A DNA stretch of 62,431 nucleotides, counting the filler, from Dimargaris cristalligena (lineage: Eukaryota): assembly GCA_003614675.1 (NCBI GenBank). It is 9 parts of 9 records of this genome, joined end to end, with 100 filler letters (N's around TTAATTAATTAA, not from the genome) between each part and the next. Parts side by side here need not be neighbours in the genome. Positions count along the whole stretch, not along the records: positions 34,872 to 41,711 come from ML003478.1; 8 more parts are not named here. The stretch is one strand, 5' to 3'. The notes under the pieces are model-generated. The model was not told the DNA's origin. It made no database searches and saw only the letters and a list, made by a program, of their open reading frames with translations. Positions 3,057 to 55,751 of this stretch are shown one piece after another. Each line of letters starts with the position of its first letter. Position 1 is the stretch's first letter. A program made the position numbers and the translations under genes.

Positions 3057-4394
3057 TATTAATAAGTCGAGAGGAGTATTCCTGGAAGTCACGGCCCAGG
3101 TAAGATTATAGGCTATTCAACGAGGTCTCCCCCATTGGGAATTTATTTACCCAACACCTACCTATTTGACTACACCAATGAACTGGTGGCACAATCACTA
3201 CCATAGAACCAGCCGCTACCAAGAGGACCAGACCACATATCTTTCAAATGATTGGCAAGTGCACCAAAAATATGACAAAGAAAGGGACCAGTTAATGGAT
3301 GGGATGGTCCCTGGCCAAAGCTTCAAAGCCTCAATTCACCGTAGCCTTCTATAGTTACACATAAGTATCACTTGGTCACCTTTTCAAGCTAAAATATTAT
3401 ATATAATGTGGCTTGGTGTACAGAAAAAAATTCATCAATGCTATTTTTGGGGGAGAGGGGAGGATACCTTCCCTCGTTCTCCCAACCAACTCCCTAATAC
3501 ATTTCAGGGAGGCAACCAAGTGCCCTTATCTTATTTTCCCCCAGAACTAATAGCTTTAAGTGTGACCAATTCTCTCTGTTTGTCCTTTTGAGTATATTGG
3601 TGTACCGGGAATGGGCAATTCCCCAAATTCCCCAGGAGGGAATACAGTCCTTACCCTTGAAATATAGCTCTAATATTTATTATACCCCCCTCTCTATCTA
3701 TACACTATACCTACCATTTTGCATTGGCGCCTTGACTCCATTGACCACTGTATCTGGCCTAAGCCACTCAATATGGGTGGGCCCCAGATTTGAGCTAAGC
3801 TAGGCTCCCTCAACTCCCTGTTGACTGGAGAATTGGGCTTATTGATACCAACAGGCAGTTATGGTGCTTCATTGCACAGTAGTTTCATGTACTTGTGCCT
3901 TATGGTAGCTACATGGACAGAGTCCACTAATTGTACTAGTAGTCAAATTACCTAGGTAGAACTATCTACCTGGCCAGTAACCAAGTTAGTATAATGACCA
4001 GCTGGATGGGGAGATTTAACCCTTTTCGGTCTTATCAAAACTAAGTGCTCCCACTTCCCCCTAGTTCTGGGAGGTTCCTTCTTTTAGTATCCCTATATGA
4101 TAAACTACTCATACACTTTTCCCATTTGGCCCCAATTAGCCCATAATAAAGGAATGCAATGGCATTCAGTTGAAGGACGAATAGAAATGGCCACTTTCCC
4201 CTCTCTGAGGAGTTTTACCATCCTGTTCACAGGAGAGGACTTTATAGACTTGGGTTTAAAACCCATTGTGCTAATAGAGGTTGAAGTATACTAATTTGAT
4301 GTGAAAATGAGAATATAATCTTCCTCCTCTTTATATTTCTTCCTACTAACTAACCCAATTTAACCTCATTTATTTTAAAATAAAATATATTATC

Positions 4395-4977
4395 TGTTGG
4401 TCCTCCTAATCTAACTTAATCTGGACCCAATGATTGCCTTCCTATATTAGACCTTATTATACTATATTAACCCTCCTATAGTCACCCCCGGTACTATGGG
4501 TTCCTCATTTATCACCTAACCCTTCTTCTTTCTGACTCCAGCCCTTCACACTAATCACTTAACAGGCTGATCCAAAGACTCTTCCAGTTCCTATAAGAGT
4601 CTTCCTGATACGAAGCCACCTGGATACCTATTTACCTATACCTTAGTTTAGTAACACCTTCCCTTGGGGGCCTCCCTTTGGAGTTATCCCCACATATATA
4701 TAACCAGGCCCCTTTGGGACTAGTTAGATTCCTCAGCTTATTATTACCCCCTAGTTTACCCAATAAACTCTATATATACTCACCTCCTGTGTACTGACCA
4801 GTAAGTGTGCCTACTACATATCCCTTACATCAATCCAGTCACCTAAACCTTTATTAGTTAGTACTATACCCCATACCTGACGCTAGTAGCCCACTTGGCT
4901 AAGTCTAAGCCCCGCCTACCATTAGAAGCCTATCCTCAGGACTCTTGATGGACTAAGAGTGGTTAACCTGGGTGATA
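4395..4977. mobile_element. Solo LTR family B (~580 bp)
   Basis: Homologous to four other copies. Ends TGTTGG...GGTGATA (decayed CA). Flanks TTATC/CTATT fit a CTATC TSD altered by C>T changes. Confidence 0.8.
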
Positions 4978-27546: not shown

Positions 27547-29208
27547 CCCGACATGTCCAGTTTCCCGGCCTTTCACTGCTCTGGATGTAGATAACCTCCT
27601 TCCTTTTATAAACTTGACCTCTTTCTTTTCACCGGATGCATTCGATGCTTTGATGCGTCTTCATTTGAGAATTGGGGCGAGCTTAGTGTTACATATTCAG
27701 TTATGAGACGTATATGTTGGGCCGGTGATTTGAGGAACCCCTCTCCCGGGACTAAGGATGGGGCTGAGCCCCGCGCTATGCTCGGGATTGGATGGGCCAC
27801 CGGACGTCGGGTTTGGNNNNNNNNNNNNNNNNNNNNNNNNNNNNNNNNNNNNNNNNNNNNTTAATTAATTAANNNNNNNNNNNNNNNNNNNNNNNNNNNN
27901 NNNNNNNNNNNNNNNNGGCATTAGCAATGGCCAAATCAATAATCAGATACCTGTCTTTTATAATATCCTGGACTATTAAATGGCGTCGATAGGTCGGAGG
28001 GCTTACCAATGTTCGCAAGGTTACGTGGCCGTGGCACTCGCTATTGCCGCATTTGGACAGGCCGAGAACGGCAAACTAGCCTGACCGTGTCGCAGTTGGC
28101 GCAACTCAATTTCCAAAAAATGAGTTGATCCATATGCCCAAACATAAAAGGCATGGGCATCCCGGCCACATCGGGTGCACCGATGCTATTCATTTAAGAG
28201 GTACAATTGGGTCAACCAAATTCAGCTGTTTAGTATCTACAAGTGCTTCCCTTTCTACCTATTGAAATCTATGAAGCAGTTCCACACGTTCGCAGCGTAT
28301 GAGTTATTCTATAAGGCGCCAGATTGCAGGCCTTGTCGCTAAGTAGTTTCAGCAAAGCGTTAGAGATACTGTCCCATATAGTAACCAATAGTTGTTGGAT
28401 GGAAACCCCGGGTGGTAGGAACGTTTGGTAGAATTGGTTAGAGAAGGTTGGTGGCTAAAATTTATTTTAACATTCAGTGTATGCCACATTACATTTAACA
28501 TAAAAAATCACATAACAATCAATCCAAACTATATATTCTAACTTTGAGGGAGACCAACCCGCACTTTAGTTGGGCGAAGATGGATACTTGATGAATTCGG
28601 CTCTTAGGATCGTGCGAAAATCGAATAAAAAGGCGACCCTACAGTATTTATTAGGTTGTAGGAAGAAGGGGTAAGAAATGTAATCGCCAGGACAAAGTAG
28701 ATAAAACCAATCATTAGAGAGAAAAGAGAGCGAGTGGAGAACATCTGTCACAGAGCGGTAATTGGAGAATAATAATCAGACAGTCGAAACTGTAAAGTTG
28801 GAGGGGTGTGTAAGAAATAATGTTTGGATTGATACTGACGTCGCGCCAATGGAGTCCCATCCCGTGGAATTACAGAGGTAGCTGCACAGTAAATGCATTG
28901 ACAAACTCCAGAAAAGGTCAGAATATAATATATGGCTAGGAAAGTATCGGGAAATTTAAAGCCACAAATCATTTTAGAACATAACATAATCCAAAATCCA
29001 CGATATAGTTAAAGGGATTTGAGCAGTCGGAATAGTTTAGTGTCAATAGGACAGTACACTTTCCCTAAGCGAACATCAACAATAAAATGAAAATATCGGG
29101 ACATACGCTAACACATGCACCGGTGCACGCAGAATAAAAGGGATGCAGTTGTATCTTCAATACAGTAAGATAAGGTAGCCGAGATATGGCTTGGAATACC
29201 CAATATCT

Positions 29209-29412
29209 CTATCGAGATCGGGGCAAAGGGTTGGATTTAAATCTGATGAGCAAGAAGCTCAGCTTAAAGTCAGGCGCGCGCTTTCCCAACCAATGATCGA
29301 ATCGAACAGGGAGATGCGAGTTGAGCGACCCATTCGTTGGCATGGAGTGTGATAATGGGGAGGCTAAAAGTGCGATAAAAGCCGCCAAAATAGTGAATCG
29401 TAAGGCGTGCAT
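29209..29412 (-). CDS. 67-aa secreted prepro-peptide: signal peptide, pro region, KR site, 22-aa cationic/hydrophobic peptide
   Basis: MHALRFTILAAFIALLASPLSHS-MPTNGSLNSHLPVRFDHWLGKR|APDFKLSFLLIRFKSNPLPRSR*. TATATAA near 29550. A paralogue lies 3.4 kb away. Confidence 0.75.
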   Translation of the reverse strand: MHALRFTILAAFIALLASPLSHSMPTNGSLNSHLPVRFDHWLGKRAPDFKLSFLLIRFKSNPLPRSR

Positions 29413-31890
29413 GCCTGCAATGAAAGCGAAATGTGTAATGGAGAAAGGTGTAAAATTGTGGCGTCGATTTAGTGGCTATAGAAATAATAGAAATGATAGA
29501 TGGAGAGAGAGTGGGAGAGAGGTACGAAGGGAAATAAAGCTGAATTATATAACAGCACAAAAATGACTGAAGTGAAGGCGGGGGCGGTCTATTTTTGAAA
29601 GAGGTATCATAGTTCTATTTAGTCAAATCCCTCCCAACTTATGTATTCGACCAATCAATTGTGGATTTGCCAATTGGTTATCAAAGATTACCCGCTTATT
29701 ACTTCTGTTGAAGAATAGCGGTAATCGGGATTTCAGCCCTGGTGTCGACCTGCTCTATTCGGAGGCCACATCCTTTTTTTACCGAAAGTTCCCATACTGG
29801 CATTAGGGCTATGAGGTGCCAAAAAAATCCGGAAATGCAACGGTAGTCGTAGTGTAACCATTAGGAGAGATTGGCCCCATTAGTGATGTCGAGGTCACCT
29901 GATTCTCCCTACTCTAAAGCAACGTCTAAAAGGCGAAGAACGGTCACCGGCCCCATTAAAACATAACGGATTAGCCTAAGGTATAAATTAGATAATGATC
30001 TGCGCCACCCGGCAAACCTTGTCTTAATAAAATACTTATATCTATACATCTAGTCATTATCCCCCTCGAACCCCGACTCGGCTGATGTGTTGGATCCTAG
30101 CCTAACTCGGCCTAATTGTAACAGTAGGCATGTATTGTCTTAAAGTACGGAAAGTAATGCTGCCGAATGGGGTTGCCGGGATTCCTTGGTCACTATCAAA
30201 ACTATTCCCACAACCGAGTCCGCTATTAGTACAACTGGGTCATATATTACCCCTTTTCTATTGCTTATCTGTCAAAAGCTACCTCGATATCGATGGTAAT
30301 CAATGTTAATACGGGCGTTAGTACTGTCAACTAATCGTCGGCCCTGCCCTTTCAGACTGCTTCAAAACGCAGGGAGGGGTCATGCTTGTTGGCTTAGATG
30401 GCTAATCCCTCTACGGTTCCTGGAAGTGACCAGCGTCACCGAACAATTATGTTCCGAGTGCCTAGTATACGAATTCTCCTCCCTCCTAATTTATGTTTAG
30501 TCCATCTCCCGTTGGCATTATTATTAGTAGTTCAAATTTCAGTCTAAAGGTGATGATTAGTCATATCGAATAGCCATTTGATTGAGATATTTTATTTACA
30601 ATTCTAGCTGGGAGTAGTATTTAAATAAACTACAATTCTCCCAAGGTATAATGCTGAGACAGACTTACCATTACCCCACCAGTAAAAATTGAAGAACCAC
30701 AAAAGGAGAAGCGCGCCCTCCGCAGTAATACTTATTAGATATAAGTTTATGCCAATATATAGAATTAGAAGCATTTTTAACAGAGCTTTCCTGGAAATGG
30801 TCCTCAGGAGGAAGACCGTTTCAATAACGGTTTCTCGTGCGGGTATTCATTGAGTTGTATATCAAAAGCGAAATTGCCACCAATACCTTCAGTAAACATA
30901 ATTCACCGGTTGATACAGGCACCCTTAGTAAACCCATCAATAAGAGCAAGGTCGCGAGCCTCGCAGAAAAGGCAAAGGTAACGGTAATTTATAGCTCGGC
31001 AGCGGTTCCAGGTTGCTCTACTACCAGGGAGAATGCAATTGGGGTTTTCCCCGGATACCCCGTAAATTACCTGATGATGGAAAAACTGGTAAGTCAATGT
31101 TCCACCTTGATTAGCAACCATACAACGGAGCCTTGTAAGACACTGGAGTGGTTAGCCGTTGCAACACTATTCAAGTTCGCTCGATTCTTAAAGGTTGTGG
31201 GAAGAACTATACAGTCGTATAATGGGAGCTTGCCCTATAAAGTTGACCTATTCGATTGCTTATTAGCTAAATATATATAGGAGGCATTTTGTCTCGTCTT
31301 TATTTGCCGTTTATGATAACGAGATGCTAATTACCCCCTATTTTAACTATTTCCTAAAACACAATTTTTTTATATAATACTATTGGCTACCTCAAGGTGC
31401 CCTTAGGCTTAATGGCTTAGTGTATACGTGTTTCGTTGGCTGTGATATTCCCCACTACATCATTTGGACATGTCTATTGAAGTAAACTAGCATATCAGTC
31501 TTACACTTTGTACAGCTCAATGCCCAGGAAATGAACTGGCTGATATGTCCACATATAAACAACATGGGAACCCTAGCTACACCAAATGCTTCTGTATTAT
31601 TCATTCATGAGGCATAGTTCAGCCAATCAGACCCACCTAGTTGGTATAATACATATTACATGCAGGCTGAAAAAAATATACTAATACTCCATAAAGTAGA
31701 ATATTCTATGGGTGAATATATACCCAACTTAAAAGGTAGATGGAGATGGGGAATGTTCAAGCCAAGCCCTTTATACTATGTTTCAGTAGATTAATAACAA
31801 TTGTATTTCAGCATTTATTGGCTAAATGGAAGGAGTGGTAATAAATGGGATTGCCAGTGTAAAATGAAACAAACTAGCCATCAAAGGGAG

Positions 31891-32474
31891 TGTTTCCTGG
31901 GTTAACCACTCTTAGTCTATTAAGAGTCCTGAGGATAGGCTTCTAATGGTAGGTGGGGCTTAGGCTCAGCTAAGTGGGCTGCTAGCATCAGGTACAGGCA
32001 TAGTACTAACTAATAAAGGTTTCAGTGCAGGTATAGGCAAGGGTCATGGAGCAGGCACACTTACTAGTCAGTATAAGGGGAGTGAGTATATATAGGGTTT
32101 ATTAGGGGTAAACCAGGAGGTAAGAATAAGCTAAGGAATCTAACCAGTCCCAATGGGGCCCAGTTATATATACATAGGGACAACTCCAGAGGGAGGCCCA
32201 GGGGGAAGGATACTACTAAGAATAAGGTATGGTATAATAGGCTAACCAGATAGTCATGAGGACCTGGAAGACTCTACTGGTAACTGGAAGAGTCTTTAGA
32301 TTAGTACTTGAGTGATTAGTGTAAAGAGGCAGAGTCCAGAAGGGGAAGGGTTATATAATATAGGGTGATCCCATAGCACTGGGGGTGACCATAGGAAGGT
32401 TAATATGGTGCTATAAGGCCTAATAGGGATAGATACTATAGTGTCTGGATTAAGGAGGATTAGATAGTCTAACA
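31891..32474. mobile_element. Solo LTR family B
   Basis: TGTTTCCTGGGTTAACC...TAGTCTAACA; inverted relative to 4395-4977; CpG-depleted. Confidence 0.8.
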
Positions 32475-32633
32475 GGGTTCACGGAGTTGGGATATTGTAG
32501 TCTATAAGAAAGGACAATTTCACTTAGCAAACAATAATAACCAAGAAAATATCAATAAAGTGCCAGAAAGGTGTAATGTAAAGATGATTAGGTAATCATA
32601 ATGTTGCTATAGAGATTGGAACTAACTGATGTA

Positions 32634-32810
32634 TTAAAATTTAAATAGCGGGAGAGGCCCATGCTTAGTATCCATGTGTTTGTTCAACTGATCATAGATT
32701 CAAACAGGGAAAGCTAAGCTGAGTGACTTATTAGTAGGCATAGTGTATGCTGAAGGAGTGTCTATGAGTGTGACAACAGCTGCCAAAATAGTCAGCTGCA
32801 AGATGTTCAT
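32634..32810 (-). pseudogene. Pseudogenised paralogue of the 29209-29412 prepro-peptide gene
   Basis: MNILQLTILAAVVTLIDTPSAYTMPTNKSLSLAFPV*: CGA>TGA at 32702-32700 and KR (AAGCGC) > KH (AAACAC). Upstream ~32935-33120 aligns with ~29545-29730. Confidence 0.8.
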
Positions 32811-34684
32811 GGCTGTCGTGGGGGCAAAGTGTTCAACAGGACAAGTTGTGGAAATGGGAGATGTCAACTTGATGATGATAGGGACAGAGGTGATATACAG
32901 ATAGAGAAATGTGCTAGGGGGATTAGGGTTCATTTATAAATAAGTGTGAAAGTGACTGTAGTGAGGGGGGAAAAGTTGATATTTGTAAGAAATACCATAC
33001 CTCCATTAAGTTAAGTCCCCTCTGAATTATCTATTGAGCTGACCAACAGGTGATTTACCTATTGGCTATCAAAGATTGGCCTTTTTCATGTGGTTTTTGA
33101 AGGATGGCGGGAATTATGATTTCTACTCTTAAGCCTATGTGTTTCTTCCATATATTTTACCTATTGTCTTTTAACTACTAAAGTGGTGCTCGATCCAAGC
33201 TTATGACAGTGTCATGGATATTTCTTAATTACTTGTCAGGCAACAGCTGGCTCAAATCTACGATCATAGGAAGGAAATTGTATTCAGTTGTATTTAGATC
33301 TGCAGCAGTATCTACTTGTCCAATCAGGAAACCTAGTTTACCGGCCAAAAATTTACCCGAATGATGGAGACGACCAATGCTATAAAGCTATTCAATGTGG
33401 CAAAGTGATCATCAACCCTGTCCCTTCACATCACCGTCAAATACATGAAAGGATAGAGGATAATGGAACCGCTGGTTAATCCTTCAACAGTTCCCTTAAG
33501 AGGTCAGCACGGCTGAATAACACTGCTCCCAGTGCCAAGTATACTTACTCTCCTTACATTATCCCTTTTTGTGTTGATCTCCCAATGCCACTACTATTAT
33601 CATAACCGTGTTTCAGTCCAAAAATATGGTAGTTAGTTTTACCATCCGACTGTGCCATCATGACAAGCTCTTGGCTTTTTACATAGCAAGGTGTTCCCTG
33701 TTTGGTCAGAGTGGGATTATTGTGGTGATTTGCCACTCTATTACTGAATCACAGAGCTCACATGAGTAAGCTCTCTAGTTTAACAGCCAGATATGGTCAA
33801 CTATGAGTCCAAATATTCACCTGACCCCACCAGCAAGAATGCGCCACAAAGCTGGCAACAAACTATTATTAACCTAGTCGGACACAAACAAGTCCCAGGA
33901 CATCTAATATAACAGAACATACGTCATCACTGGTTTGGTATGGTATTATAAAATACTACTACGGATATCTAAACTATATCCCCATTGGGTAACTATGGTA
34001 ATAATGCTCCCTCTTGACCTTGACGTACCCCTGGAAATTTATCTCCAAGTGCTGTTTCAACGGGGCATTATGGATACAGAGCCAGGGGTCTATCAATTTA
34101 AGCGTGTCTAAGGGTGGAGTACCAGCTGGAGTGTATATATATGGAGGTTTTTAAATAAATAACATTAGCGAAGGAAGTATTGGAGTTTGGCCCGGGTGGC
34201 TGTTTGTACATAGTAGTGTCACCAGAGAGCCTTCCAAGAATACTAATGAATGCACTAGAAGGTGTCCGCTGGTGCTTGAAAGGCTATGGTGGGAACCCAC
34301 AACTTCTTCACATCAGCTATGGTGGTGGGGTGGACTAGTCCTTTTAGTTTCGGTCAGGGTTAGGTAAGTGATCATCTTAACACGGAGTGTTTCCATGGGA
34401 AGAGCGCTATGTTATATCAGGGCCACATTTGGGAAGCAACAGATACAAGGACCTGCTAATAATTGCACTTAGTAACCTACCATGCAATTGCGAAAGTGGT
34501 GAATGAAGTGGCGGCTGGGTGATTTTAATACCAAATTGTAAAAGTAAGTGTGCCAATTGACTATCCCTATATGGCTACATTCTCTTCAAAGTAATAGTAT
34601 CGCATACGTACTAATACATAGTAACCCACAAAGCGCGTGTATTTGCCCTGCCATCTGCTGACGGCAATTATTACCTCCAGTCGA

Positions 34685-34771: not shown

Positions 34772-34871
34772 NNNNNNNNNNNNNNNNNNNNNNNNNNNNN
34801 NNNNNNNNNNNNNNNTTAATTAATTAANNNNNNNNNNNNNNNNNNNNNNNNNNNNNNNNNNNNNNNNNNNN

Positions 34872-35030
34872 ATTTTACGAATAGTCTCTGAGGTAAAAAA
34901 TAATTACCTGCTTATAATTTATATTAACTAATAAATTTAATAGATTTTTATATTTAGTTTTATTTAAATATTAATTTCTAAGCATATTGAAAAATATACA
35001 AAGACCTGTTCGGGTCTCTTGGACTTAGTT
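34872..35030 (-). other. Mitochondrial group I intron, 5' portion (downstream of the cox2 exon)
   Basis: Starts after an exon-terminal T. Contains a GAGACC..GGTCTT hairpin and the R element TCAGAGACTA at ~34891-34882. Very AT-rich. Confidence 0.75.
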
Positions 35031-35120
35031 ATCCATTAAATAAAGCAATTTAAAAGAAGGAAAAGCAATCATTATAAGTATTATAGCTGGAGAAATTGTC
35101 CATATTAATTCAATTAATGA
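35031..35120 (-). CDS. cox2: Mitochondrial cytochrome c oxidase subunit 2 exon (30 codons); NUMT or chimeric join
   Basis: Translates SLIELIWTISPAIILIMIAFPSFKLLYLMD, the conserved Cox2 second TM helix. Confidence 0.93.
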
Positions 35121-35450
35121 CAACATCTGTAACGGATGTTAGGACTATCAATTAAAGAAAAATTCTTTTTTTTCGTTTAGTCTCTAAGGATAAATAATTT
35201 GTATTTTTCCTATTAATAAAAAAAATAATAATTCCTATAAGAGGAAATAATATATAAAAAATATTTTTTTTTTAATATTTAGTAAAATTATAATTAAATA
35301 AACAACTTTTTTTAATTATTTTTTTTATTAGGGAACTCCAAGAGCGATGTTTTATGGGCGATATCTTTGAATTAATATATGACTCTTATGCTATGATTTA
35401 TTTATTATTTGGGATTATATAGTTATGCCTTAACCGTAATGTTATTTTCC
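35121..35450 (-). other. Mitochondrial group I intron, 3' portion (upstream of the cox2 exon)
   Basis: R-like CTTAGAGACTAAAC (~35188-35175), S-like GATAGTCC (~35149-35142), P9 hairpin AACATC/GATGTT and terminal G directly before the exon. Far boundary approximate. Confidence 0.75.
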
Positions 35451-37036
35451 AAGTAATACCTGAATCAGCACCCACTATATGTGGGGCCCACTGCATTGTC
35501 ATTCAATACTATTCTTTTAAAAAACGAATATACTTGATATAGCAGTACAGCAGTGTAACAAAAGATTTATTGGCTCAGTTAAACAATAGCCTAGTTATTT
35601 TCTCATAAATATATATTTACAGCCCCTCCCTTTAGCCACTTTGTTGTAAACTAATATTTTAAATAGCATTTAGCAATGTCCCACTTTGCAATAAATTTGC
35701 CCTGGTGTGTAATTGTCAATGACTGCTAACAATTATACGTTTATTTGTCGATTGTCTTTAGAACTTGGTTCGATGTTGATAAAGTGGGACTACGAGTGTA
35801 TCCCAACAGTAGGGATACCATGGATTTGAGAATGGGGGACATGTAGCCGCTCAATAATGTGCGAAATTTTTTATTGGCCTTGAGGGATGTTACCACAGGC
35901 ACGACCACCTCAGCAACTCCCACTGTCCCTTATTTGTGTGTGTTTTTACCTATTTCCCTATTATAATTACTATATTCCAAGTCCTTGGGCAAATCAGGCC
36001 ATTCAAGGGCAATTATATTAGCTTAGCTCTAAAGCAGACAATCAAATATTAATACTTGTAAATAATGCCTGTCCTATTTCTTAGGCTGGTCATTTCCAAG
36101 AGGGGTGTTGGCCCACCTATTCTTCCATTCTTGGTTTGTTTCAAACAGTAACTAATCCAGCATATCTTCACTATCATTTTAGTGGTTGGTAGTCGAAGGA
36201 TGATAGAAACACGACTTGGATTTATCTTAAGGAGGTTGAAGCGCCATAGAGGTAATTTAAGGGATGGGTGAGGTATGGGAGTCGAAGTAAACAAGGGGCT
36301 ATTGACAATTTATTGATTATAATTTTCCGTAGAGGTAGAAGTAAGGTGAGGCAAACCATAGCTGGCTAAGACAATTGAAATAATAATAACCGGTCACCTT
36401 TTCTATGCCACTACTTACTGGATAGGATATGTGGTGGACTGACTCAGCGTATGTGGTGGCTGCAGGGCATTGGAGGCATAAAGGCTTGATAAAAAACCGC
36501 ACTAAATCAAAGGACGGAAGTGGACGAGAGGCAGCCTCTTTATCCAAACCCGCGGTGTCGCTTGGTTGACCTGCAGTGGCTTTCCACCATCGTTTAATTC
36601 TTGGCAAATCGTGGTACAAAGTCTTAAGAAACGTTCTTAGAATAACCTGCCAACATAACACTCCGCTGTGGGTTGTCGTCGATGCTTGTCATCTATTCGG
36701 CGACAACCGATTAATCACCCCAGTTCGCACTGCTTTATTTGGAGGCGAATGCCTTTTTCTTTTGGCTGAGGCGGTATCCGCACTACTCCTCTGTATTCTG
36801 CAGTTTCCCATCTTCGCCACCATTCCTTTCCTTGATTCCCCTTCCGCCCCTATCCCAACATACTCACACACGCGCCCTTAGTCCCCTCCTTATCATATAA
36901 CCAGACATAGCAAACCAGCTGATTTGGCCTGGGCGACTTCACTCCTCTGGATTCCTGGTTTGGAAACCCCGAGAGTAAATTCTACAGTGACCCGTAAATC
37001 CGTGGGACCCCATCAAGTCGAATTCTATTTAGCACG

Positions 37037-37741
37037 ATGCATCCCTCATACACCGCACTTAACCTTCCGACATATGCGGGAAAATTCCCGACAATACGCG
37101 GTCGTATATAGGAAGTGCTTTTGCCTAAAGGTGCCTGTATAGTGAAACGCGGAACACCAGAAGAGGTCTACAACATGCTTTTGGTCCAGCGCTTTACCGA
37201 CATCCCCGTCCCCACTGTTCATGGAATCCAAGGGGAGTATATTATTATGGAGAAGATGTCCGGAGCCCCGCTGGACTGGAAAACCACACCATTTCGAAGT
37301 AAAATCGTCGACCAGCTGAGTGCATTTGTAGCACAACTACATTCTCTTTACGGCATTCTACCAGGCAATAGTAGTCACGAATGTATAATCCACAGGCGTC
37401 GAACTACCAAAGGTACTTGTTGGAATCTAAATGATTTACACTGCTTATATGTCTCCCGGATGACATCTGACACTGTCCGTGATCATGCGTTGAAGACCCT
37501 CACAAAGGACTATACATTGTATTATACCCACGGAGATATTGCACCGCATAACATAATGGTCGATAATAATGGTACCATTACTGCACTTCTAGATTGGGAG
37601 GACACCAGCTTCTATCCCGAGTATTGGGAATATGTAAGATCGACACGATACACCGAATGGTTAGCCGAGGTTGGCTTATTCATGAAACCTTACTACAATG
37701 AGCATTATATTTGCATATACCTGGATATGATTTCATTATGA
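37037..37741 (+). pseudogene. APH/choline-kinase-like phosphotransferase with one in-frame stop (TAG 37109-37111)
   Basis: TDIPVPTVH, YIIMEKMSG, HGDIAPHNIMV, LLDWEDTSFYPEYWEY. The paralogue has CAG at the TAG position. Confidence 0.8.
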
Positions 37742-38238
37742 CCAATATCGTGCCTAATAATCAATAGGGTTAAAGCCGATTTATCTTTGCGAAATAAGTA
37801 CCACCATCACCCAGTACCATCAATGGGGCACGAGATTTCCACCGCTGAAGGATCGTCTTCATTCAGCTATTCCCGCCCCTTGATTCATCTATTCCTTATT
37901 ACACCTTCATTATTATCACTCTTTATATCCTATCATCTAGTAGTGTGTTTCAGCATGTTCTGCGCTGCTTTCACGCATTTATTTTCAGTCTGATCGGTTA
38001 TATAAAGCCGAGCGAATTCCGATAGGTATTCTTTAGCTAATCAGCGATTATCCAATCCCTCCTTTTACTAGTAGCCTCGTACTACCAATACCTGCCTCAT
38101 TTATTATCTATAAATCGCCCCTTCGCATCAGCATTTTGTCTTTTATCTTTTGAGACTCACTCTAGACGCAGACCTTCTAGTCGTTACTAGGAATTCTACC
38201 CACGACTATCAACTATCCACGCATACCCAACATCTAAC

Positions 38239-38790
38239 ATGGATATACACAACGACGGCGATGAAGAAACCCCCACCTTTAATCTATATGTGGTGGTATA
38301 TGAAAGCGACGACGGTAGTCAGGATCAGCATGTTTTACTGTTTCGTAGCACAGGCAAAAATGTCTGCGGGATGGTGTATGAACTCAATGGTGATTACGGG
38401 AACTACGTATACCAAAGCTATTTGGATACCGTGAAACGTACTGATATTATTGAGTCCATGGTACTTGTTAAAACGGATATAGAAGACATCGCCCCCCACG
38501 CTACACTAGTACCAGCGAATAATACCAGACCAGCGAATAATTTAACGGATCCAAAGCGGAATCATCGGAATTGTCAGCATTGGGTGGTTGCGGTGTTAGA
38601 GCGGCTATATGCCCACGACGTTATTAATCGGGCGGAAAGAAATGCTGGCATGCATGTTGTACGCCAAGTCATAAGTTACTGGTCCTTCTGGAACAATGAA
38701 CTAATTCATGACCATATAGATCATGATACACGAAAGAATGAAGGTGCTTTATTCTGCTATGACTGCGAAGTATATATAGGCGCTGTATAA
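38239..38790 (+). CDS. 183-aa protein with His...NCQxW motifs (DUF6540-like, permuted papain-fold candidate)
   Basis: LYVVVY...QHVLLF...GMVYELNG...RNCQHWVVAVLERL. Intronless, with TATAAA at ~38109. Confidence 0.65.
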   Translation: MDIHNDGDEETPTFNLYVVVYESDDGSQDQHVLLFRSTGKNVCGMVYELNGDYGNYVYQSYLDTVKRTDIIESMVLVKTDIEDIAPHATLVPANNTRPANNLTDPKRNHRNCQHWVVAVLERLYAHDVINRAERNAGMHVVRQVISYWSFWNNELIHDHIDHDTRKNEGALFCYDCEVYIGAV

Positions 38791-39241
38791 TGGTCTGCCA
38801 ATGACAGTGTGGCCTTCATTGTATAGTGTTTGGTACTGGCCAAATACCAAGTCATAGCCATAATGTGAGCGTGTTCAAAGTCACTGGGCATGGTCAGATT
38901 CATTCCATAGGAAAGCCTTGTATCTTTTTTACCCCGTTCTTTTTGTATCAGCCGATTATTTTTTTTATTCAGCTTTCCAATTCTAGTATCTTATTATATT
39001 TTCCATGACTGTATGATGGCGATTTTAGTATACAATGATCGCCCACTCTGAGGTACCATTTAAGCAATTTCATTTATCTTTTCTTAACCATGGCTCGGAA
39101 ATGCCCAGCCATCTGGTGGATTTCTTCTAGGAATTTTACCAGGCAATCTTTCACTATGAACTATTTTTATATATCCTATCAATATCCGATATGTGGGAGG
39201 CTTGTGAATACCACTGCCCTATGCATCTTCTAGTATTCCAA

Positions 39242-39823
39242 TGTCACCTGGGTTTACCACTCTTAGTCCATTAAGAGTCCTGGGGATAGGCTTCTAACAA
39301 TAAGCAGGGCTTAGACTCAGCCAAGCGGGCTACTAGCATTAGGTATGGGTACAATGCTAACTAATAAAGGATAAGTACAGGTATATGCAAGGGATATGCA
39401 GTGGCATACTTACTAGTTAGACTGAAGGGAGAGTAAGCATATATAGAGTTTATTGGGGGTAAACAAAGGGGCAGAATAAGCTAAGGCCATCTAACTGGTC
39501 CCAATGGGGCCCAGTTATATATACACAGGGGACAACTCTAGAGGGAGGTCCCTGGGGGAAGGTACTACTAAGACTAAGGTATACTAAATAAGCCAACTGG
39601 ACAGTTATGGGGGTCCAGAAGACTTGGGTGGTAACTAGAAGAATCATCAGATCAGCACCAGAGTGAGTGGTATAAACCTAAGAGTCTGGAAGGGGGACAG
39701 TTATGTTGAATAGGGTGAGCCTATAGTGCCGGGGGTGACCATGGGAAGTTATATAGGGTGCTATATAGCCTAGTTGAGACAGATGATCACTATACCCAGA
39801 TTGTAAGATTAGAAAGGCCAACA
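39242..39823. mobile_element. Solo LTR family B
   Basis: TGTCACCTGGG...GGCCAACA; homologous to 31891-32474. Confidence 0.8.
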
Positions 39824-40656
39824 CAATACTCTTTTATTCTTATTTTTCATACATGACCACATATTAGAAGTTAGCTCAGTTTTTCCCTACCATAGGTTTT
39901 TATAATCCATAACTATTAAGGCATTCCATTATTAGTTATAGTTTATTTAGCCTGGTCATCTAGTACTTCTACCCCACCAAATTCCATTGTTGGCTCATTT
40001 GATTTCTTAAACATTTGAATAAATCCTCTTAAAAGCACACTTATTTAACAGCCAATTTTTTCCTAATAATTCCTTTTATTATTATTTTGTTTTATTTTTT
40101 ATATTTTCAGCTCAACCTAATGCCTTTTTATATCAAGTTTTGTATATTTTCTAACCTGATTAGTTGTAGTGAAGCCATTAAGCATCATAATGGATCCCCC
40201 AACACCTGGCCAACCAAAGTCCACTCCAGTCTCTGGTTCCTCAGACCCCAGGTTCAGCATCACCAGCTGGATCAGGATCATTAAACCTAAAGATGTAATT
40301 AATGATGAAACACTGGGTCTCTCCCAAAGCATTAGCATAACTTATCCAAAAAAATAGATTCTCTAATTCTTAGCTGATCTTAATCAAGGCTTTTCATTAG
40401 CCAAATGTCACCATATTACAATTTTTAAACATCAGATACTATAGCACTACTGCCAAAACTCAACAAGAAAGATGTGTATTTTATTGAAGCTGGAGTTAAC
40501 CTAATTGTCAATTGATAGGCCAAGTAAGTTGCATAATGATCTGCCAATTTATATTAGACTTAGAATCTGCTTCAGCTTAATTAGTGGGAATATGGTCTGA
40601 AAATAATTTCTGTGGATCTTATACTGATAGTACCAAATGGGGTACTGTTAATAGCA

Positions 40657-41310
40657 AATATATGCAAGGGATGTGCAGCAGGCACACTTACTAGTCAGTA
40701 CAAGGGAGGTGAGCTTATATAGAGTTTATTGAGATAAACTAAGGGGTAAGAATAAGCTTAGGACTCTAACCAGTCCCAATGGGCCCAGTTATATATATAT
40801 AGGGATAACTCCCAAGGGAGGTCCTAAGGGAAGGATACTACTAAGACTATATAATAAGTAAATAGGCCAACTGGATAGCTGCTGGTATTTGGAAGACTCT
40901 AATAGTAATTGGAAGAGTCTAATAGATAAATAATTAAGTAATTAGTATGAATAAGTGGAGTCCAGAAGGGGAAGGGTTATATAATATAGGATAATCCCAT
41001 AGTACTGGGGGTAACCATGGGAAGGTTAATGTGTTGGTGTAACCACAGATTCTCTCAATGATAATCCAAGATAGACTAAAGATGAAGTTTATTTTAAGAG
41101 ATAGAAGTAGGAAAGAACCACAAGATGAGAATTAAGCTCATTGCAGTGGTATTTATTGAGTGTAGTTTCAACTAATAGGATCACTCAAAATACCTGGTAC
41201 AGTAAATGGTACTTGGGGGGAGATGTAGTCCAACATAATGTGGTACTATAAGGCCTAATAGGGACGGACATCTAAGCTGGCTAGATTAAGGTGGATTAGA
41301 TAGTCTGACA
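40657..41310. mobile_element. Truncated LTR family B copy interrupted by a nested element
   Basis: Family B homology at 40657-41031 resumes at 41236-41310 and ends GTCTGACA. Confidence 0.8.
41032..41235 (-). mobile_element. 204-bp element family C (short solo LTR) with a perfect 5-bp TSD
   Basis: TGTTGG...CCAACA ends flanked by TAATG at 41027-41031 and 41236-41240. Minus-strand ATAAATA and AATAAA. Related copy at ~55770-55930. Confidence 0.85.
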
Positions 41311-41711
41311 TACCAAACCAGCTGATTTGACCCAGGCAACTTTACTCTTCCAGGTTCCTGGAATTGAAACCTTGAGAATAAATTCTACAGTGCCCCATTT
41401 ATCCACCAGGTCATTTCAACCTGAAAACTATTTAGGATGATGCATCCTTCATATACCACATTTAATCTTCCAATATATGCAGGGAAACTACTGACTATAC
41501 ATGGCTGTATACAGGAAGTACTTTTTCCTGAAGGTGCCTGTATAGTGAAACACAGAACACCCAAAGAGGACTTTAATATACTTTTAGTCCAGTACTTGAC
41601 TGACATGCCTGTCCCCACTGTTTATGGAATCTAAGGGGAGTGTATCATTATGGGTAGGGTGCCTGGAACTCTGCTGGACTGGAAAACTACACCATTCTGA
41701 AGAAAAATCAT
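41311..41711 (+). pseudogene. Second, hypermutated copy of the APH-like gene with its upstream region (cut by contig end)
   Basis: Aligns with ~36908-37308. CAA>TAA at 41632-41634 and CGA>TGA at 41698-41700. No CpG remains. Confidence 0.9.
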
Positions 41712-42119
41712 NNNNNNNNNNNNNNNNNNNNNNNNNNNNNNNNNNNNNNNNNNNNTTAATTAATTAANNNNNNNNNNNNNNNNNNNNNNNNNNNNNNNNN
41801 NNNNNNNNNNNGATATAAAAATAGAATGTGATTGAAAAAGGGAATACTATGATTGACTAAGTAGTCTCAGGTCCTACCACAATATGTGTGTTATGATGTT
41901 GGGTAATGTAAATAGTAATAAAATAAAAATATAATAGAAATAATACCCTCGGGTACTCGAAAATAACTAAAACAAAATCAAACTTCCGCAGAAGTGCTAT
42001 CTGGTGAATTCTTCAGCCTCGACTAAAAAGTTGTGTTTATTGATAAGATATTCCACCAAGTATTTATACTAAAACTCGGGGATTATAAATTGGTAGACGT
42101 TTTTAAAGACTAAAGGACT

Positions 42120-45973: not shown

Positions 45974-46597
45974 CTAGATAAACTCTAATTGACATTGGCG
46001 TTTGGTCGAATATCCTCACATGACCATTAATTGGTACAATTTCCCTACTGGACATGGCATACACCACTTCCTCCTCCATTTAGCATTAGCTTCTCGGCCT
46101 CCATATGATACTAATAAACAGTCGGTTTGTGATTCTTAATATTGGATGTATGGGTGCTATTGGTACCCTTTTAAGAGACTCGGTCAAACAAAAAATTAGA
46201 CAGTTCTTCTGCTGGTAATGCCATAGCCCTTAGGAAATAGTTAATATCTACATATTCTATTGCATGGTATAATATTATATTAGTGAAGCCATTGGCAGCC
46301 CAGCTACTGGATTGAATTTGAATACTAAGAGTAGAGTGGCCAGGGATTCAAGGATTGCAGAACGGATGCAAAGATGCCTTACTGGTTGTTGGACCTTCTA
46401 ATCCCCCACTTTACTCTAAGATATTTTACAATAGCCTTATACCTTTCTATGGCATTATAAATTATCTGACCATAAAATAGTACCTTACCACCACCTTAGA
46501 ATTGATTTAATCTGTATATTTCTGAAGTTTAGGACCTATTACCCCTGCTTCAAATCTTGATTTCCATGTGTTATTTTTAAGAATAAACTATCTGTCC

Positions 46598-47181
46598 ACA
46601 TGGACCTTCTAATCTACCCTAATCCAGCTGGCTTAGTATCTGACCATATTAGGCCTTATAGTGTCATATTAACCTTCCCACAGGTACCCCTAATACTATG
46701 GGATTATCCTATATTATATAACCCCTCCCCTTCTAGACCCCCCCTCTTTACACTAATGACTCAAGTGCTAATCCAAAGGTTCTTCCAGTTACCAGTAGAG
46801 TCTTCCAGATACTTGTAACCATCCAGTTAGCTTATTTACCTATCCTATAGTCTTAGTAATATCTTTCCCTTGGGACCTCCCTCTGGAGTCATCCCCATAT
46901 ATATATAACTGGGCCCCCTTAGGACCAGTTAGATTCCTTAGCTTATTTCTTACCCCCCTAGTTTACTCTAATAAATACTATAGATGCTTACCCCCTCATA
47001 CTAACCCATAAGTGTGCCTGCTGTACATCCCTTGTATAACTGATCACCTAAGCCTTTATTGATTAGTACCATACCTGTACCTGATGCTAGTAGCCCACTT
47101 AGCCAGGTCTAAGCCCCGCCTACTACCAGAAGCCTATCCCTGGGACTCTTGATGGACAAAGAGTGGTAAACCCAGGCAACA
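46598..47181. mobile_element. Solo LTR family B
   Basis: Same orientation as 4395-4977; ends CCCAGGCAACA; left end decayed. Confidence 0.8.
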
Positions 47182-47411
47182 GTACTACAGTTAATTTAGA
47201 AAACTTCTGAAAAAGGTATATAATATCCTTGTTTATATTTAATAATGAATAATATTTGACTAGCTGCAAGGTGACAGTAGTCCCCATTTACATAGTGCTG
47301 TATATTCTTTACATTGGATGTAAAAATTATAGGCTACCAAGAGTGCAGAATCATTTTTGGGGGGAAGAGGATATAAACTGCAATAATGTTACTTATCATT
47401 AGTGTGCCAGA

Positions 47412-48113
47412 TGTATATAATAAGATCTGGCCCAAGGCAGACCTTATACCCAAAAGAGCTATTTAAGATTCTCAATTTGAGATTCTTAATTTAGACTATT
47501 GCCTGGAAGGTAGTGTAGTGAGGTGCCAAATTAGATGGAACTGGAGGAAAGGCTAATTAGTACCTGAAGCCAAGGTAATAAAAAGGGACTTTTTGCCAAG
47601 TACAAGGAATAGGAGAACAGAGAGTAAACTGAGTAGTAGCTAATAGTCACCTGAAGCCAAGGTGGTATTAGTATTCTACAAGGGGATCAAAGGGGTCAAA
47701 TAACAATGTTTAGGAAGTAAGGGGCTAAAGTTGTCTGTCCTTTCAAGGGGCAGACAAAGGGTTTATTTATAGTTTTTTATCTGAGGGGAAATATAGGGAG
47801 AATCAGAGAGGAATGATAGATTAGTTATCAACATAAGAACTTATGCATGTGATAGAACTATAAACTAATCAGACTAGACTTGGCACATGGAAAGGCTTAG
47901 CATAAAATGGGGGACCAATTGATAGGATGGTGGGCTGGTAGTTATGTGAAACATAGCCAGTGGCATGTAAAAACCAATCAGGGAGCTGGTGGCATGTGGT
48001 TCTGTAAAACATGGCTAATGAAATGGAAATGGAGAGAAAAATGGAGAAAGAAAATGTAATGTGGTGTAGGCACCACAGTTGTAAGCTCCCTATCACTGCT
48101 TGTACCCAGTACA
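47412..48113 (-). mobile_element. Candidate decayed LTR (single copy in window)
   Basis: On the minus strand: purine run AGGGGAGG, then TGTACTGGGTACA...TATACA, then TCTGG. Internal TATAAATA and short duplications; CpG-free. Confidence 0.35.
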
Positions 48114-48504
48114 CCTCCCCTATGTACTAAGCCTTCTCCCCTTCTTTAGTACTTTATCAGCTAATATATACATCAGCTATACCATCCCTATCTAGCCCCT
48201 AGTTATAGCTACTATACAATCTTCAAAAAGCATGAAATAGGGTATTCCATATAATAGTGCTAACTAATAGTGTGTTTCAGTCATGCCAGAGTACATATTA
48301 GATGCTAGAAGCAGGCACAGTAGTATAAACATCTGCCTTAGTACAGTTTATACTAGTACCATTTACTGTAAGCTAAATGGTTATTTTTATTACCTGGCCC
48401 CCTATATTTTAATTATTGTTATTAATAATAAAAATTCACCCAAATGGCCTTTGTCTGGCTATATATTAAGGCTTTCTACAATAGCTGTCACCCAAATTAA
48501 CCAC

Positions 48505-48638
48505 TGTGGTGAACTTACCACATTTTTTACCTACTTTTATTTTTAATCCATTTTTCACACTTATCGGAAGTATGCCCCTGACAAGTGAATGAGCCCCTGC
48601 CCCTGACGAGTATGGTCATTTTTCCTCCATTTTCATTA
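48505..48638 (+). mobile_element. LTR family A 5' end at contig end
   Basis: Near-identical to the reverse complement of ~340-475. Confidence 0.8.
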
Positions 48639-48738
48639 NNNNNNNNNNNNNNNNNNNNNNNNNNNNNNNNNNNNNNNNNNNNTTAATTAATTAANNNNNN
48701 NNNNNNNNNNNNNNNNNNNNNNNNNNNNNNNNNNNNNN

Positions 48739-55642: not shown

Positions 55643-55751
55643 CCCTTGCAGCCACCTCTTGGAACAGCAAGTCTATCATCACCTTTCCCTTTTATCACCT
55701 ATCTTTTTGAATAAAGTTCAGTTTTTAAGGATTTGAGTTCAGTTCTTTATA
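55643..55751 (+). mobile_element. LTR family A 3' end at contig start
   Basis: Reverse complement of ~13662-13770. Contains AATAAA; terminal ACA mutated to ATA. Confidence 0.75.

What the first reader, a model, noticed from the sequence alone, without database searches (positions are those of the whole stretch)
36908..41711. Complete CpG erasure in a duplicated gene copy: RIP-like or methylation-driven hypermutation
Seen: by my manual count ~36908-37308 has about 22 CpGs, while the aligned duplicate 41311-41711 has none; nearly all have become TG, CA or TA (e.g. ACGCGGTCGT>ACATGGCTGT, AACGCGGA>AACACAGA, AGCGCT>AGTACT). Some CA>TA and TG>TA changes also occur, including a stop. Established: ascomycete RIP favours CpA, some basidiomycetes show CpG-context hypermutation, and 5mC deamination yields the same transitions. 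Inference: a strong CpG-directed genome-defence process in an early-diverging fungus. It is asymmetric between copies, unlike classical RIP, which hits both.
Basis: partly seen in the sequence, partly recalled or inferred. Interest (0 to 1): 0.8.

Follow-up and report, generated by a model that had tools for sequence, protein, structure and literature searches.

The report
CpG-erased gene copy beside LTR repeats
A broken copy of a kinase-like gene in an early-diverging fungus has lost every CpG because it sits in a repeat-rich, probably cytosine-methylated block; this is mostly ordinary methylation decay, with an added CpA-to-TpA bias worth following up.

Summary
Copy A (36892-37308) has 22 CpGs. 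Its ungapped 77%-identical duplicate B (41295-41711, cut by a contig end) has none. All 22 became TG (11), CA (10) or TA (1).

The interpretation needs correcting. The window is nine short contigs joined by N linkers. One protein is 99% identical to a Dimargaris cristalligena protein, so "early-diverging fungus" holds.

B is not mutated because it is a duplicate:
- It starts at the 3' end of a high-copy ~590-bp LTR.
- It lies in a 2.6-kb CpG-depleted block (o/e 0.05) that also holds single-copy DNA.
- Eight such blocks make up 21% of the window and hold 73% of its internally repeated bases.
- A keeps its CpGs, and its lineage shows only background C>T rates.

Best reading: regional, repeat-associated 5mC followed by deamination, as known for basidiomycete and truffle transposons.

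One extra signal stands out. CpA>TpA is also elevated: 15 of 51 sites in B, and 38 of 141 cells in the LTR family against 31 of 710 at CpC/CpT. CpG-only maintenance methylation does not predict this.

No methyltransferase gene or 5mC could be tested, because no genome is held.

Interest is moderate. This is a new member of a known kind.

The parts
36892..37308 (+). Copy A: CpG-rich stretch (22 CpGs) made of 145 bases upstream plus the first 90 codons of an APH-like gene
   Evidence: Ungapped alignment to 41295-41711, 77% identity; BLAST E 4e-88
37037..37741 (+). APH-like (phosphotransferase enzyme family) reading frame of copy A, interrupted by an in-frame TAG at 37109-37111; the open part is 37112-37741
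   Evidence: Pfam PF01636, E 1.3e-10, 41.9 bits against a cut-off of 23.2; 1650 homologues at E<=0.001; codon table; atlas hits are all APH clusters
38191..38790 (+). Neighbouring DUF6540 open reading frame, CpG-rich
   Evidence: Pfam PF20174, E 7e-9; CpG positions
39072..41711 (.). CpG-depleted block (5 CpGs in the 2600 bases scanned, 39072-41671; o/e 0.05; GC 0.38) that contains copy B; runs to the contig end
   Evidence: Sliding CpG o/e; CpG positions
39242..39823 (+). LTR-like repeat copy R39 (TG...CA ends)
   Evidence: BLAST to four other copies at 73-82%; alignment A1; ends read; summed depth in runs up to about 900 times single copy
39824..40658 (.). Stretch between the two LTR copies, almost CpG-free; 39888-40571 has single-copy depth
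   Evidence: No CpG between 39730 and 41265; depth 125-215 against about 143 for single copy
40659..41310 (+). LTR-like repeat copy R40, truncated at its 5' end, with an extra ~190-215 bases (about 41027-41235) absent from most family members
   Evidence: joints skipping 209-215 bases in many run contigs; 3' end read
41295..41711 (+). Copy B: CpG-free, degenerate duplicate of A with stops at 41632 (TAA) and 41698 (TGA); begins at the 3' end of R40 and is cut by the contig end
   Evidence: junction bridged by run contigs 41167-41560 and 41167-41653
31891..32474 (+). LTR-like repeat copy R31 inside the CpG-depleted block 31317-33316
4370..4975 (-). LTR-like repeat copy R4 inside the CpG-depleted block 3101-5200
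46571..47181 (-). LTR-like repeat copy R46 inside the CpG-depleted block 46012-48638
29232..29734 (.). CpG-rich partner of a second, older duplicate pair (22 CpGs aligned); holds a small signal-peptide-like ORF on the minus strand
32630..33123 (.). CpG-poor partner of the second pair, directly downstream of R31; keeps 1 of 22 aligned CpGs

Best explanation
Copy B is a dead partial duplicate of an APH-like gene. It lies directly beside a high-copy LTR, inside a repeat-associated block of DNA. In this fungus such blocks are most likely cytosine-methylated, mainly at CpG and to a lesser degree at CpA. Over a long time (about 20% divergence at non-CpG sites) 5-methylcytosines deaminated to thymine on either strand. 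Every CpG therefore became TG or CA, and part of the CpA/TpG went on to TpA. Copy A lies 1.9 kb from the nearest LTR in unmethylated, gene-type DNA and kept its CpGs. Shown here: the mutation spectrum, its direction, its regional extent, its link to repeats, and its absence from A. Inferred: that the agent is 5mC, that methylation is targeted to the LTRs and spreads into flanking DNA, and that the decay was gradual.
For: (1) All 22 of A's CpGs are changed in B, split 11 TG, 10 CA and 1 TA. That is one hit per CpG on either strand. (2) Homologues match A's state at 15 of the 30 differing residues and B's state at 7, with 8 ties, so B is the derived copy. (3) The loss is regional. Block 39072-41711 has CpG o/e 0.05 and includes DNA of single-copy depth. 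(4) Window-wide, eight blocks (12,748 bases, 21% of the non-N window) have CpG o/e 0.10, against 0.82 in the rest, with GC 0.39 against 0.45 and TpA o/e 1.12 against 1.01. They hold 4174 of the 5749 bases that are repeated within the window (73%), and 7 of the 8 blocks hold such a repeat. (5) In the five LTR copies, TG and CA co-occur at 20 column pairs, against 1-9 for the other 14 dinucleotide classes (TA shares CG's count, since both have TG and CA as single-transition derivatives). Only 6 of 109 cells at inferred ancestral CpGs are still CG. (6) No strand clustering of C>T and G>A (z -0.5), as expected for independent events. (7) Decay seems ongoing. A second strain's contigs differ from the window at 24 of 1628 bases in the block, against 20 of 3863 in the gene part (Fisher p 0.0007). 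One site pair reads TG in one strain and CA in the other (40294/40295). (8) A second, older pair in another contig shows the same asymmetry, with 1 of 22 aligned CpGs kept in the copy next to an LTR. (9) Established knowledge from passages read: a CpG C>T signature in transposons of basidiomycetes and Tuber is attributed to 5mC deamination (PMC4352252), and 5mC is confined to transposons in early-branching fungi (PMC12695648).
Against: No 5mC data and no C5 methyltransferase gene could be examined for this organism, so the agent is inferred from the spectrum alone. CpA>TpA is clearly elevated too. In B it is 15 of 51, against 13 of 106 at CpC+CpT (p 0.013) and 6 of 63 in the reverse direction (p 0.008). 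In the LTR family it is 38 of 141, against 31 of 710, after removing inferred ancestral CpGs (p 1e-14). A CpG-only maintenance system of the DNMT1/DNMT5 type does not predict this. It needs non-CpG methylation or a second process. The LTR sample is only five copies from one window. The sample of strain differences is small, and only 40 of 321 listed differences were shown. A is not fully intact, since it has a TAG formed at a CpA.
Confidence: 0.68

Rival explanations
1. A true RIP-like defence. A homology-triggered, enzyme-driven C>T mutator, active in a sexual or pre-meiotic phase, recognises the repeated LTRs, and perhaps the A/B duplication. It mutates them at CpG and CpA and leaks into the adjacent DNA, including B and the stretch between the two LTR copies.
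For: CpA>TpA, the classical RIP context, is raised 2.4-fold in B and about 6-fold in the LTR family. TpA o/e is raised in the blocks and TpA/ApT is 1.09 against 0.93. The mutated stretch between two direct LTR copies, and the leakage into flanks, resemble what is described for Neurospora (my recollection, plus the repeat-linker-repeat passage in PMC12543289, section 9). A paper on Entomophthorales raised the possibility of RIP outside Dikarya from a composite RIP index (PMC11105155, passages read).
Against: Copy A is spared, whereas RIP hits both copies of a duplication. CpG is the dominant context rather than CpA. (CpA+TpG)/(ApC+GpT) is 1.18 in the blocks, which is not lowered. There are no strand-coordinated runs of changes. 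A kingdom-wide k-mer screen found RIP-like enrichment only in Ascomycota (PMC12543289, abstract and section 9), although it used scaffolds above 50 kb and looked for enrichment rather than depletion. Presence of RID/Masc1 is not testable here.
Confidence: 0.2
2. A methylation-independent regional mutation or composition bias, for example AT-biased mutation in late-replicating or recombination-poor repeat DNA, removed the CpGs.
For: GC is lower in the blocks (0.39 against 0.45), and the strain divergence there is 2.8-fold higher overall.
Against: The rate ratios are far from a general GC>AT bias. In the LTR family only 6 of 109 ancestral-CpG cells survive, while CpC and CpT change in 3-5% of cells. 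GpC is not depleted to the same degree (o/e 0.84 against 0.95). The 11:10 split of TG and CA is the specific mark of a CpG-dyad process.
Confidence: 0.07
3. Artefact: the contig is a chimera across high-copy LTRs, or the CpG-poor parts come from another organism in the sample, so A and B are not neighbours or not from one genome.
For: Run contigs break inside both LTR copies, at 39270-39568 and 40688-41167, so no independent contig links A to B.
Against: Contigs of two runs from different studies cross the boundary from CpG-rich DNA into the block (36879-39270) and cross the LTR-to-B junction (41167-41560 and 41167-41653), at single-copy depth similar to the gene part. The same LTR family sits inside four of the window's nine contigs next to CpG-rich genes. 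Even if A and B are unlinked, the CpG erasure and its spectrum stand.
Confidence: 0.05

Closest known systems
CpG-signature C>T decay of methylated transposons in Basidiomycota (Microbotryum, rusts) and Tuber melanosporum, attributed to 5mC deamination with DNMT1/Masc2-type enzymes (PMC4352252, passages read)
   Same: C>T at CpG in repeat DNA. The Tuber case also has a secondary CpA signature (40% of TEs CpG, 25% CpA, as given in that paper). Genes are spared.
   Different: The lineage differs (Kickxellomycotina). Here the effect is seen on a gene copy flanking an LTR and on single-copy DNA between LTRs, measured against a matched unmutated copy. The enzyme set is unknown.
Repeat-induced point mutation (RIP) of Neurospora crassa and other Pezizomycotina
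   Same: Irreversible C>T mutation associated with repeated DNA. CpA>TpA is elevated. Stop codons are created. Mutation spreads into adjacent DNA.
   Different: CpG rather than CpA is the main target. Only one copy of the duplication is hit. There is no strand clustering. The lineage is outside Dikarya. A RID homologue was not tested.
5mC confined to transposons, with 6mA on active genes, in early-branching fungi (as stated in PMC12695648, passages read)
   Same: The same two-compartment layout is inferred here: CpG-normal genes and CpG-depleted repeat blocks.
   Different: That work maps methylation directly in other species. Here only the mutational footprint is seen, and no paper found or 63 gives a methylome for Dimargaris.
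Vertebrate CpG depletion with unmethylated CpG islands
   Same: Methylated DNA loses CpG to TG/CA, and unmethylated DNA keeps it.
   Different: Here the depleted fraction is the minority (21% of the window), is tied to repeats, and shows extra CpA decay.
RIP-index signal reported for Entomophthorales (Zoopagomycota) (PMC11105155, passages read)
   Same: A suggestion of repeat-directed C>T mutation in a zygomycete lineage outside Dikarya.
   Different: That evidence is a composite dinucleotide index over 1-kb windows, with caveats the authors state. Here the evidence is polarised pairwise and family alignments with context-specific rates.

Membership tests
Methylation-driven CpG decay of repeat DNA (5mC deamination) | CpG>TpG and CpG>CpA in about equal numbers, at a rate far above other contexts | tested here: met
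   22 of 22 CpGs changed: 11 TG, 10 CA, 1 TA. CpG 23 of 44 cytosines against 13 of 106 at CpC+CpT, p 1e-6. In the LTR family 6 of 109 ancestral-CpG cells survive.
Methylation-driven CpG decay of repeat DNA (5mC deamination) | Regional depletion that coincides with repeats, while genes keep a normal CpG level | tested here: met
   Eight blocks with o/e 0.10 against 0.82 in the rest. 73% of repeated bases lie in 21% of the window.
Methylation-driven CpG decay of repeat DNA (5mC deamination) | 5-methylcytosine present on the affected DNA | not testable with these tools
   Only contigs of runs are available, with no bisulfite or nanopore signal.
Methylation-driven CpG decay of repeat DNA (5mC deamination) | A C5 DNA methyltransferase (DNMT1, DNMT5, DIM-2 or similar) encoded by the organism | not testable with these tools
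   No genome is held for the window. The survey of 528 fungi could not be read.
Repeat-induced point mutation (RIP) | Both copies of a duplication are mutated | tested here: not met
   A keeps 22 CpGs. C>T toward A runs at 10-14% in all contexts, which is the background level.
Repeat-induced point mutation (RIP) | Dominant CpA>TpA context with lowered (CpA+TpG)/(ApC+GpT) | tested here: not met
   CpA is raised but is second to CpG. The index is 1.18 in the blocks against 1.11 in the rest. The index thresholds are recalled, not taken from a call.
Repeat-induced point mutation (RIP) | Strand-coordinated bursts of C>T or G>A | tested here: not met
   Runs test on 51 changes: 24 runs against 25.7 expected, z -0.5. 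Many superimposed rounds could hide such bursts.
Repeat-induced point mutation (RIP) | RID/Masc1-type methyltransferase and pre-meiotic timing | not testable with these tools
   No genome held and no crosses.
LTR of an LTR retrotransposon (repeat R) | Dispersed copies of a few hundred bases with 5'-TG...CA-3' ends and unrelated flanks | tested here: met
   Five copies of about 580-610 bases at 73-82% identity, with TG..CA ends and a different flank at each copy. Very high summed depth in two runs.
LTR of an LTR retrotransposon (repeat R) | Target-site duplications and an internal gag-pol region | tested here: inconclusive
   ORFs of 60 aa or more in the blocks were listed, looked unlike transposon proteins by eye, and were not scanned against Pfam. 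Flanks were read by eye only and are too diverged to call duplications.
APH (phosphotransferase enzyme family, PF01636) | A match above the curated cut-off that covers the catalytic core | tested here: met
   41.9 bits against a cut-off of 23.2, profile positions 50-210 of 239. 101 homologues at E<=1e-10.

The most novel reading that the evidence does not exclude
Dimargaris, a Kickxellomycotina mycoparasite outside Dikarya, has an active C>T mutator with a CpG >> CpA > CpT, CpC preference, rather than merely passive deamination. From the LTR family the rates are roughly 47:10:2:1. The mutator is aimed at LTR repeats and spreads at least 400 bases into flanking DNA, where it kills neighbouring gene copies. 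That would be a RIP-like defence of independent or very old origin, with a different context rule and a one-sided effect on gene duplicates.
Probability: 0.2. Interest if true: 0.7.

Novelty: new member of a known kind. Interest (0 to 1): 0.4.

Why it matters
The pair gives a clean internal control. The same sequence sits in two chromatin compartments of one genome, so the mutational cost of the repeat compartment can be read directly. CpG loss is total, CpA loss is about one quarter, and other contexts stay at background. This suggests that 5mC-type silencing of transposons, and the collateral loss of genes that land next to them, operate in a barely studied branch of the fungi. In the papers searched I found no methylome or methyltransferase survey for that branch. 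The CpA component matters for the open question of whether RIP-like mutation exists outside Dikarya. By itself, though, the CpG erasure is what known methylation biology predicts.

Tried and rejected
- Whole genome: none is held, so DNMT/RID searches and genome-wide CpG statistics could not be run.
- Word-based homologue search with the APH frame found nothing at E<=1e-5. The exhaustive search found 1650 homologues.
- Earlier notes of this scan: nothing by place, words or sequence.
- I looked for an LTR, or the missing upstream part of B, in three places: upstream of A, upstream of the second pair's CpG-rich copy, and on the far side of the LTR pair. All scores were at or below the best shuffled control run (upstream of A, and both far-side comparisons). 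A simple model of an LTR element inserted into a larger segmental duplication within this contig, or of LTR-LTR unequal crossing-over, is therefore not supported.
- No RNA holder was listed among the sequencing runs, so nothing can be said on expression.
- Organism B runs (X6, X8) hold only short LTR-like or low-complexity pieces at under 90% likeness. No conclusion was drawn from them.
- ORFs of 60 aa or more inside the CpG-depleted blocks looked too short and degenerate to be transposon proteins. They were judged by eye and were not scanned against Pfam.
- Trinucleotide preference around CpA: counts too small to show any.
- The fungal methyltransferase survey (Nat Ecol Evol 2019) is not held. 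Supplements are closed, so species tables in PMC12543289 and PMC10538959 that might list Dimargaris were not seen.


Full report
**What the window is.** The window is not one stretch of chromosome. It is nine contigs of 6789-6900 bases, in order of falling length, joined by N44-TTAATTAATTAA-N44 linkers. The finding lies wholly in the sixth piece, 34872-41711, and the second copy is cut off by that piece's end. A HEAT-repeat protein of the third piece is 99% identical to an NCBI protein named from Dimargaris cristalligena, on a contig of 6876 bases, which is the length of that piece. The next hits, at 60-61%, are from Dimargaris verticillata and Dispira simplex. The lineage is Kickxellomycotina, Dimargaritales. 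No whole genome is held for the window.

**The observation.**
- 36892-37308 and 41295-41711 align without a gap over 417 bases at 77% identity (BLAST E 4e-88).
- Copy A has 22 CpGs and copy B has none, against 16.8 expected from B's own composition (Poisson P about 5e-8).
- All 22 sites read TG (11), CA (10) or TA (1) in B.
- There are 70 transitions and 26 transversions. From A to B there are 51 C>T or G>A changes and 19 T>C or A>G changes.

**Direction of change.**
- A carries an APH-family reading frame (PF01636, 41.9 bits against a cut-off of 23.2) that is open from 37112 to 37741.
- B has TAA at 41632 (CAA in A) and TGA at 41698 (CGA in A).
- I aligned both translations, with stops read as X, against 23 of the 150 homologues listed by the exhaustive search. 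At the 30 residues where A and B differ, the homologues match A's state 108 times and B's state 40 times. Fifteen columns favour A, seven favour B, and eight are ties. The strongly conserved positions, such as the G after VK and the I of the IPVP motif, all side with A.
- So B is the derived, decayed copy.
- A is not perfect. It has an in-frame TAG at 37109-37111 where B keeps CAG, and the only gene call on record for it is a 93-residue fragment (P0007).
- Among the 47 codons that differ, 17 changes are synonymous and 30 are not, so at least one lineage evolved without constraint.

**Context of the changes.** Counting cytosines on both strands from A to B, C>T occurred at 23 of 44 in CpG, 15 of 51 in CpA, 7 of 63 in CpC and 6 of 43 in CpT. 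Read the other way (C in B, T in A), the rates are 6 of 63, 7 of 49 and 6 of 56. CpG against CpC+CpT gives p 1e-6. CpA against CpC+CpT gives p 0.013, and CpA forward against reverse gives p 0.008. The lineage of B therefore suffered a saturating CpG process plus a smaller CpA>TpA excess, and the lineage of A suffered neither. The series of 51 C>T and G>A changes shows no strand clustering (24 runs against 25.7 expected, z -0.5).

**The surroundings.**
- B is not an isolated mutated duplicate. From 39072 to the contig end the DNA has 5 CpGs in the 2600 bases scanned (39072-41671; o/e 0.05), and there is no CpG at all between 39730 and 41265.
- This block contains two copies of a roughly 590-base repeat with TG...CA ends, at 39242-39823 and 40659-41310. 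The second is truncated at its 5' end and carries an extra 190-215 bases. Further copies lie at 4370-4975, 31891-32474 and 46571-47181. I read it as an LTR.
- In contigs of two sequencing runs of the same organism, the summed depth over these copies is tens of thousands, against about 143 for the flanking genes. That figure is not a copy number, but it shows a very abundant family.
- B begins at the last bases of the second LTR copy (LTR end 41310; homology to A from 41295-41307). Run contigs 41167-41560 and 41167-41653 bridge that junction.
- The stretch between the two LTR copies has single-copy depth (125-215, bins 39888-40571) and is also CpG-free. So the process covers a region and not only repeated sequence.

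**The window as a whole.**
- Eight blocks of at least 500 bases have CpG o/e below 0.3. Together they cover 12,748 bases, or 21% of the non-N window.
- Pooled, they have CpG o/e 0.10, against 0.82 in the rest, and GC 0.39 against 0.45.
- TpA o/e is 1.12 against 1.01, while CpA and TpG rise only to 1.06 and 1.05. That rise is too small if CpG simply turned into TG/CA and stopped there.
- Of the 5749 bases that match another place in the window, 4174 (73%) lie in these blocks, and 7 of the 8 blocks hold such a repeat.
- All five LTR copies lie in blocks.

**The LTR family as an independent sample.**
- In the five-copy alignment, TG and CA co-occur at 20 adjacent column pairs, against 1-9 for the other dinucleotide classes (TA shares CG's count, because the two have the same single-transition derivatives).
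- At the 23 inferred ancestral CpGs the cells read TG 41, CA 34, TA 28 and CG 6.
- After removing those columns, consensus CpA reads TpA in 38 of 141 cells, against 10 of 325 for CpC and 21 of 385 for CpT (p 1e-14). The reverse change, TpA to CpA/TpG, occurs in 20 of 515 cells.
- Converting surviving fractions to hits per cytosine gives roughly 47:10:2:1 for CpG:CpA:CpT:CpC. This is my arithmetic.
- The sample is five copies of one family, so these ratios are rough.

**A second pair.** In the fifth contig, 29232-29734 (CpG-rich, with a small signal-peptide-like ORF on the minus strand) matches 32630-33123 at 62% identity with gaps. The CpG-poor copy again starts right after an LTR copy, which ends at 32474. 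Of 22 aligned CpGs, one survives. The fates are TG 8, CA 4, TA 2 and seven others. This pair is older and near saturation. CpG still leads (18 of 44 against 21-25% elsewhere), but CpA shows no excess.

**Differences between strains.**
- Contigs of a run from another study (X5) differ from the window at 20 of 3863 bases in the CpG-normal part of the contig and at 24 of 1628 bases in the block, a 2.8-fold excess (p 0.0007).
- Among the differences shown (40 of 321 listed), the block has sites where one strain has CG and the other TG or CA (39072, 39854). It also has one pair reading TG in the window and CA in X5 (40294/40295), as expected from an ancestral CG hit on opposite strands.
- In B, four changes are polarised by copy A as CpA or TpG to TpA in X5 (41443, 41450, 41459, 41547).
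- The numbers are small, and the X5 contig could be a close paralogue rather than the allele.

**How it most likely works.**
- The simplest account is that repeat-rich blocks of this genome carry 5-methylcytosine, mostly at CpG and partly at CpA.
- The mark is aimed at the LTRs and covers neighbouring DNA for some hundreds of bases.
- Deamination then removed the methylated cytosines over a long period.
- With about 20% divergence at non-CpG sites, losing 22 of 22 CpGs needs a CpG rate only about ten-fold above background. This is my estimate, and it lies within the usual range for methylated CpG (general knowledge).
- A kept its CpGs because it lies in unmethylated gene DNA, 1.9 kb from the nearest LTR. 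The asymmetry is thus positional.
- This matches what is in print for other fungi. A CpG C>T signature in transposons of Microbotryum, rusts and Tuber is attributed to 5mC deamination, and Tuber also shows a CpA signature (PMC4352252, passages). 5mC is confined to transposons in early-branching fungi (PMC12695648, passages).

**What does not fit, and the rival.**
- The CpA>TpA excess is not predicted by CpG-only maintenance enzymes. It is the classical RIP context.
- Mutation of a linker between two direct repeats, and of flanks, is also described for RIP.
- Against membership in RIP: one copy of the duplication is spared, CpG dominates, (CpA+TpG)/(ApC+GpT) is not lowered (1.18), and there is no strand clustering.
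- A kingdom-wide k-mer screen found RIP-like enrichment only in Ascomycota (PMC12543289, abstract and section 9). That screen used scaffolds above 50 kb and would not score CpG depletion.
- A paper on Entomophthorales suggested RIP outside Dikarya from a composite index, with stated caveats (PMC11105155, passages).
- I put a dedicated RIP-like mutator at about 0.2.

**Novelty.**
- I found no paper dealing with DNA methylation or repeat mutation in Dimargaris.
- The searches were 'Dimargaris' + 'methylation' (13 papers, none on this topic by title or abstract), 'Dimargaris cristalligena' + 'transposable elements', 'Zoopagomycota' + methyltransferase terms and 'Linderina pennispora' + '5mC'.
- A genome paper that includes the species has no passage on DNA methylation.
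- The fungal methyltransferase survey was not held, and supplements are closed.
- The phenomenon is therefore a new instance, in a poorly studied lineage, of a known kind of process. The CpA component is the part worth following.

**Caveats.**
- The physical linkage of A and B depends on the window's assembly across two high-copy LTRs, because no run contig spans them.
- B's full length is unknown.
- A third copy, about 88% identical to A over 36879-37250, exists in both runs (records 4 and 13), but its sequence could not be read.
- Methylation itself is inferred.

Noticed in passing
whole window; linkers at 6901-7000, 13882-13981, 20858-20957, 27817-27916, 34772-34871, 41712-41811, 48639-48738, 55543-55642: The window is nine separate contigs in order of falling length, joined by N44-TTAATTAATTAA-N44 linkers. 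Distances and neighbourhoods across linkers mean nothing.
   Followed up: yes
41295-41311 and 32464-32474 (compare 36892-36910 and 29005-29015): In both duplicate pairs the CpG-poor copy starts exactly at the 3' end of an LTR copy, and 10-16 bases of weak similarity to the CpG-rich partner reach into the LTR end. No LTR lies upstream of either CpG-rich copy, and the missing upstream part of B was not found. The origin of this arrangement is unexplained.
   Followed up: partly
37109-37111: Copy A has an in-frame TAG where B keeps CAG, a C>T at a CpA. The only gene call on record for this locus is a 93-residue C-terminal fragment (P0007). The 'good' copy may itself be a recent pseudogene.
   Followed up: partly
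36879-37250 (run contigs, records 4 and 13): A third copy of the A stretch, about 88% identical, is present in contigs of two runs. Depth over 36696-37151 is about twice that of the flanks.
   Followed up: no
41027-41235; also 55783-55924: The second LTR copy carries an extra ~190-215 bases that most family members lack (many run contigs skip 209-215 bases there). Part of it matches 55783-55924 in another contig. This is probably a nested small element.
   Followed up: no
29209-29475 (-) and 32700-32933 (-): These are paralogous small ORFs with a signal-peptide-like start. One is CpG-rich, and the other lies in the CpG-depleted block next to an LTR.
   Followed up: partly
5754-6900 (-): A long array of C2H2 zinc fingers with HTGEKP-type linkers and internal DNA repeats (5803-5948 against 6223-6368).
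   Followed up: no
9454-11175 (-): An open frame that combines a seven-transmembrane region (weak 7tm_3 match, below cut-off) with a C-terminal RGS domain.
   Followed up: no
337-475, 13827-13881, 48505-48638, 13664-13768, 55646-55749: Further short repeats at 88-96% identity sit at or near contig ends, which suggests that repeats broke the assembly there.
   Followed up: no
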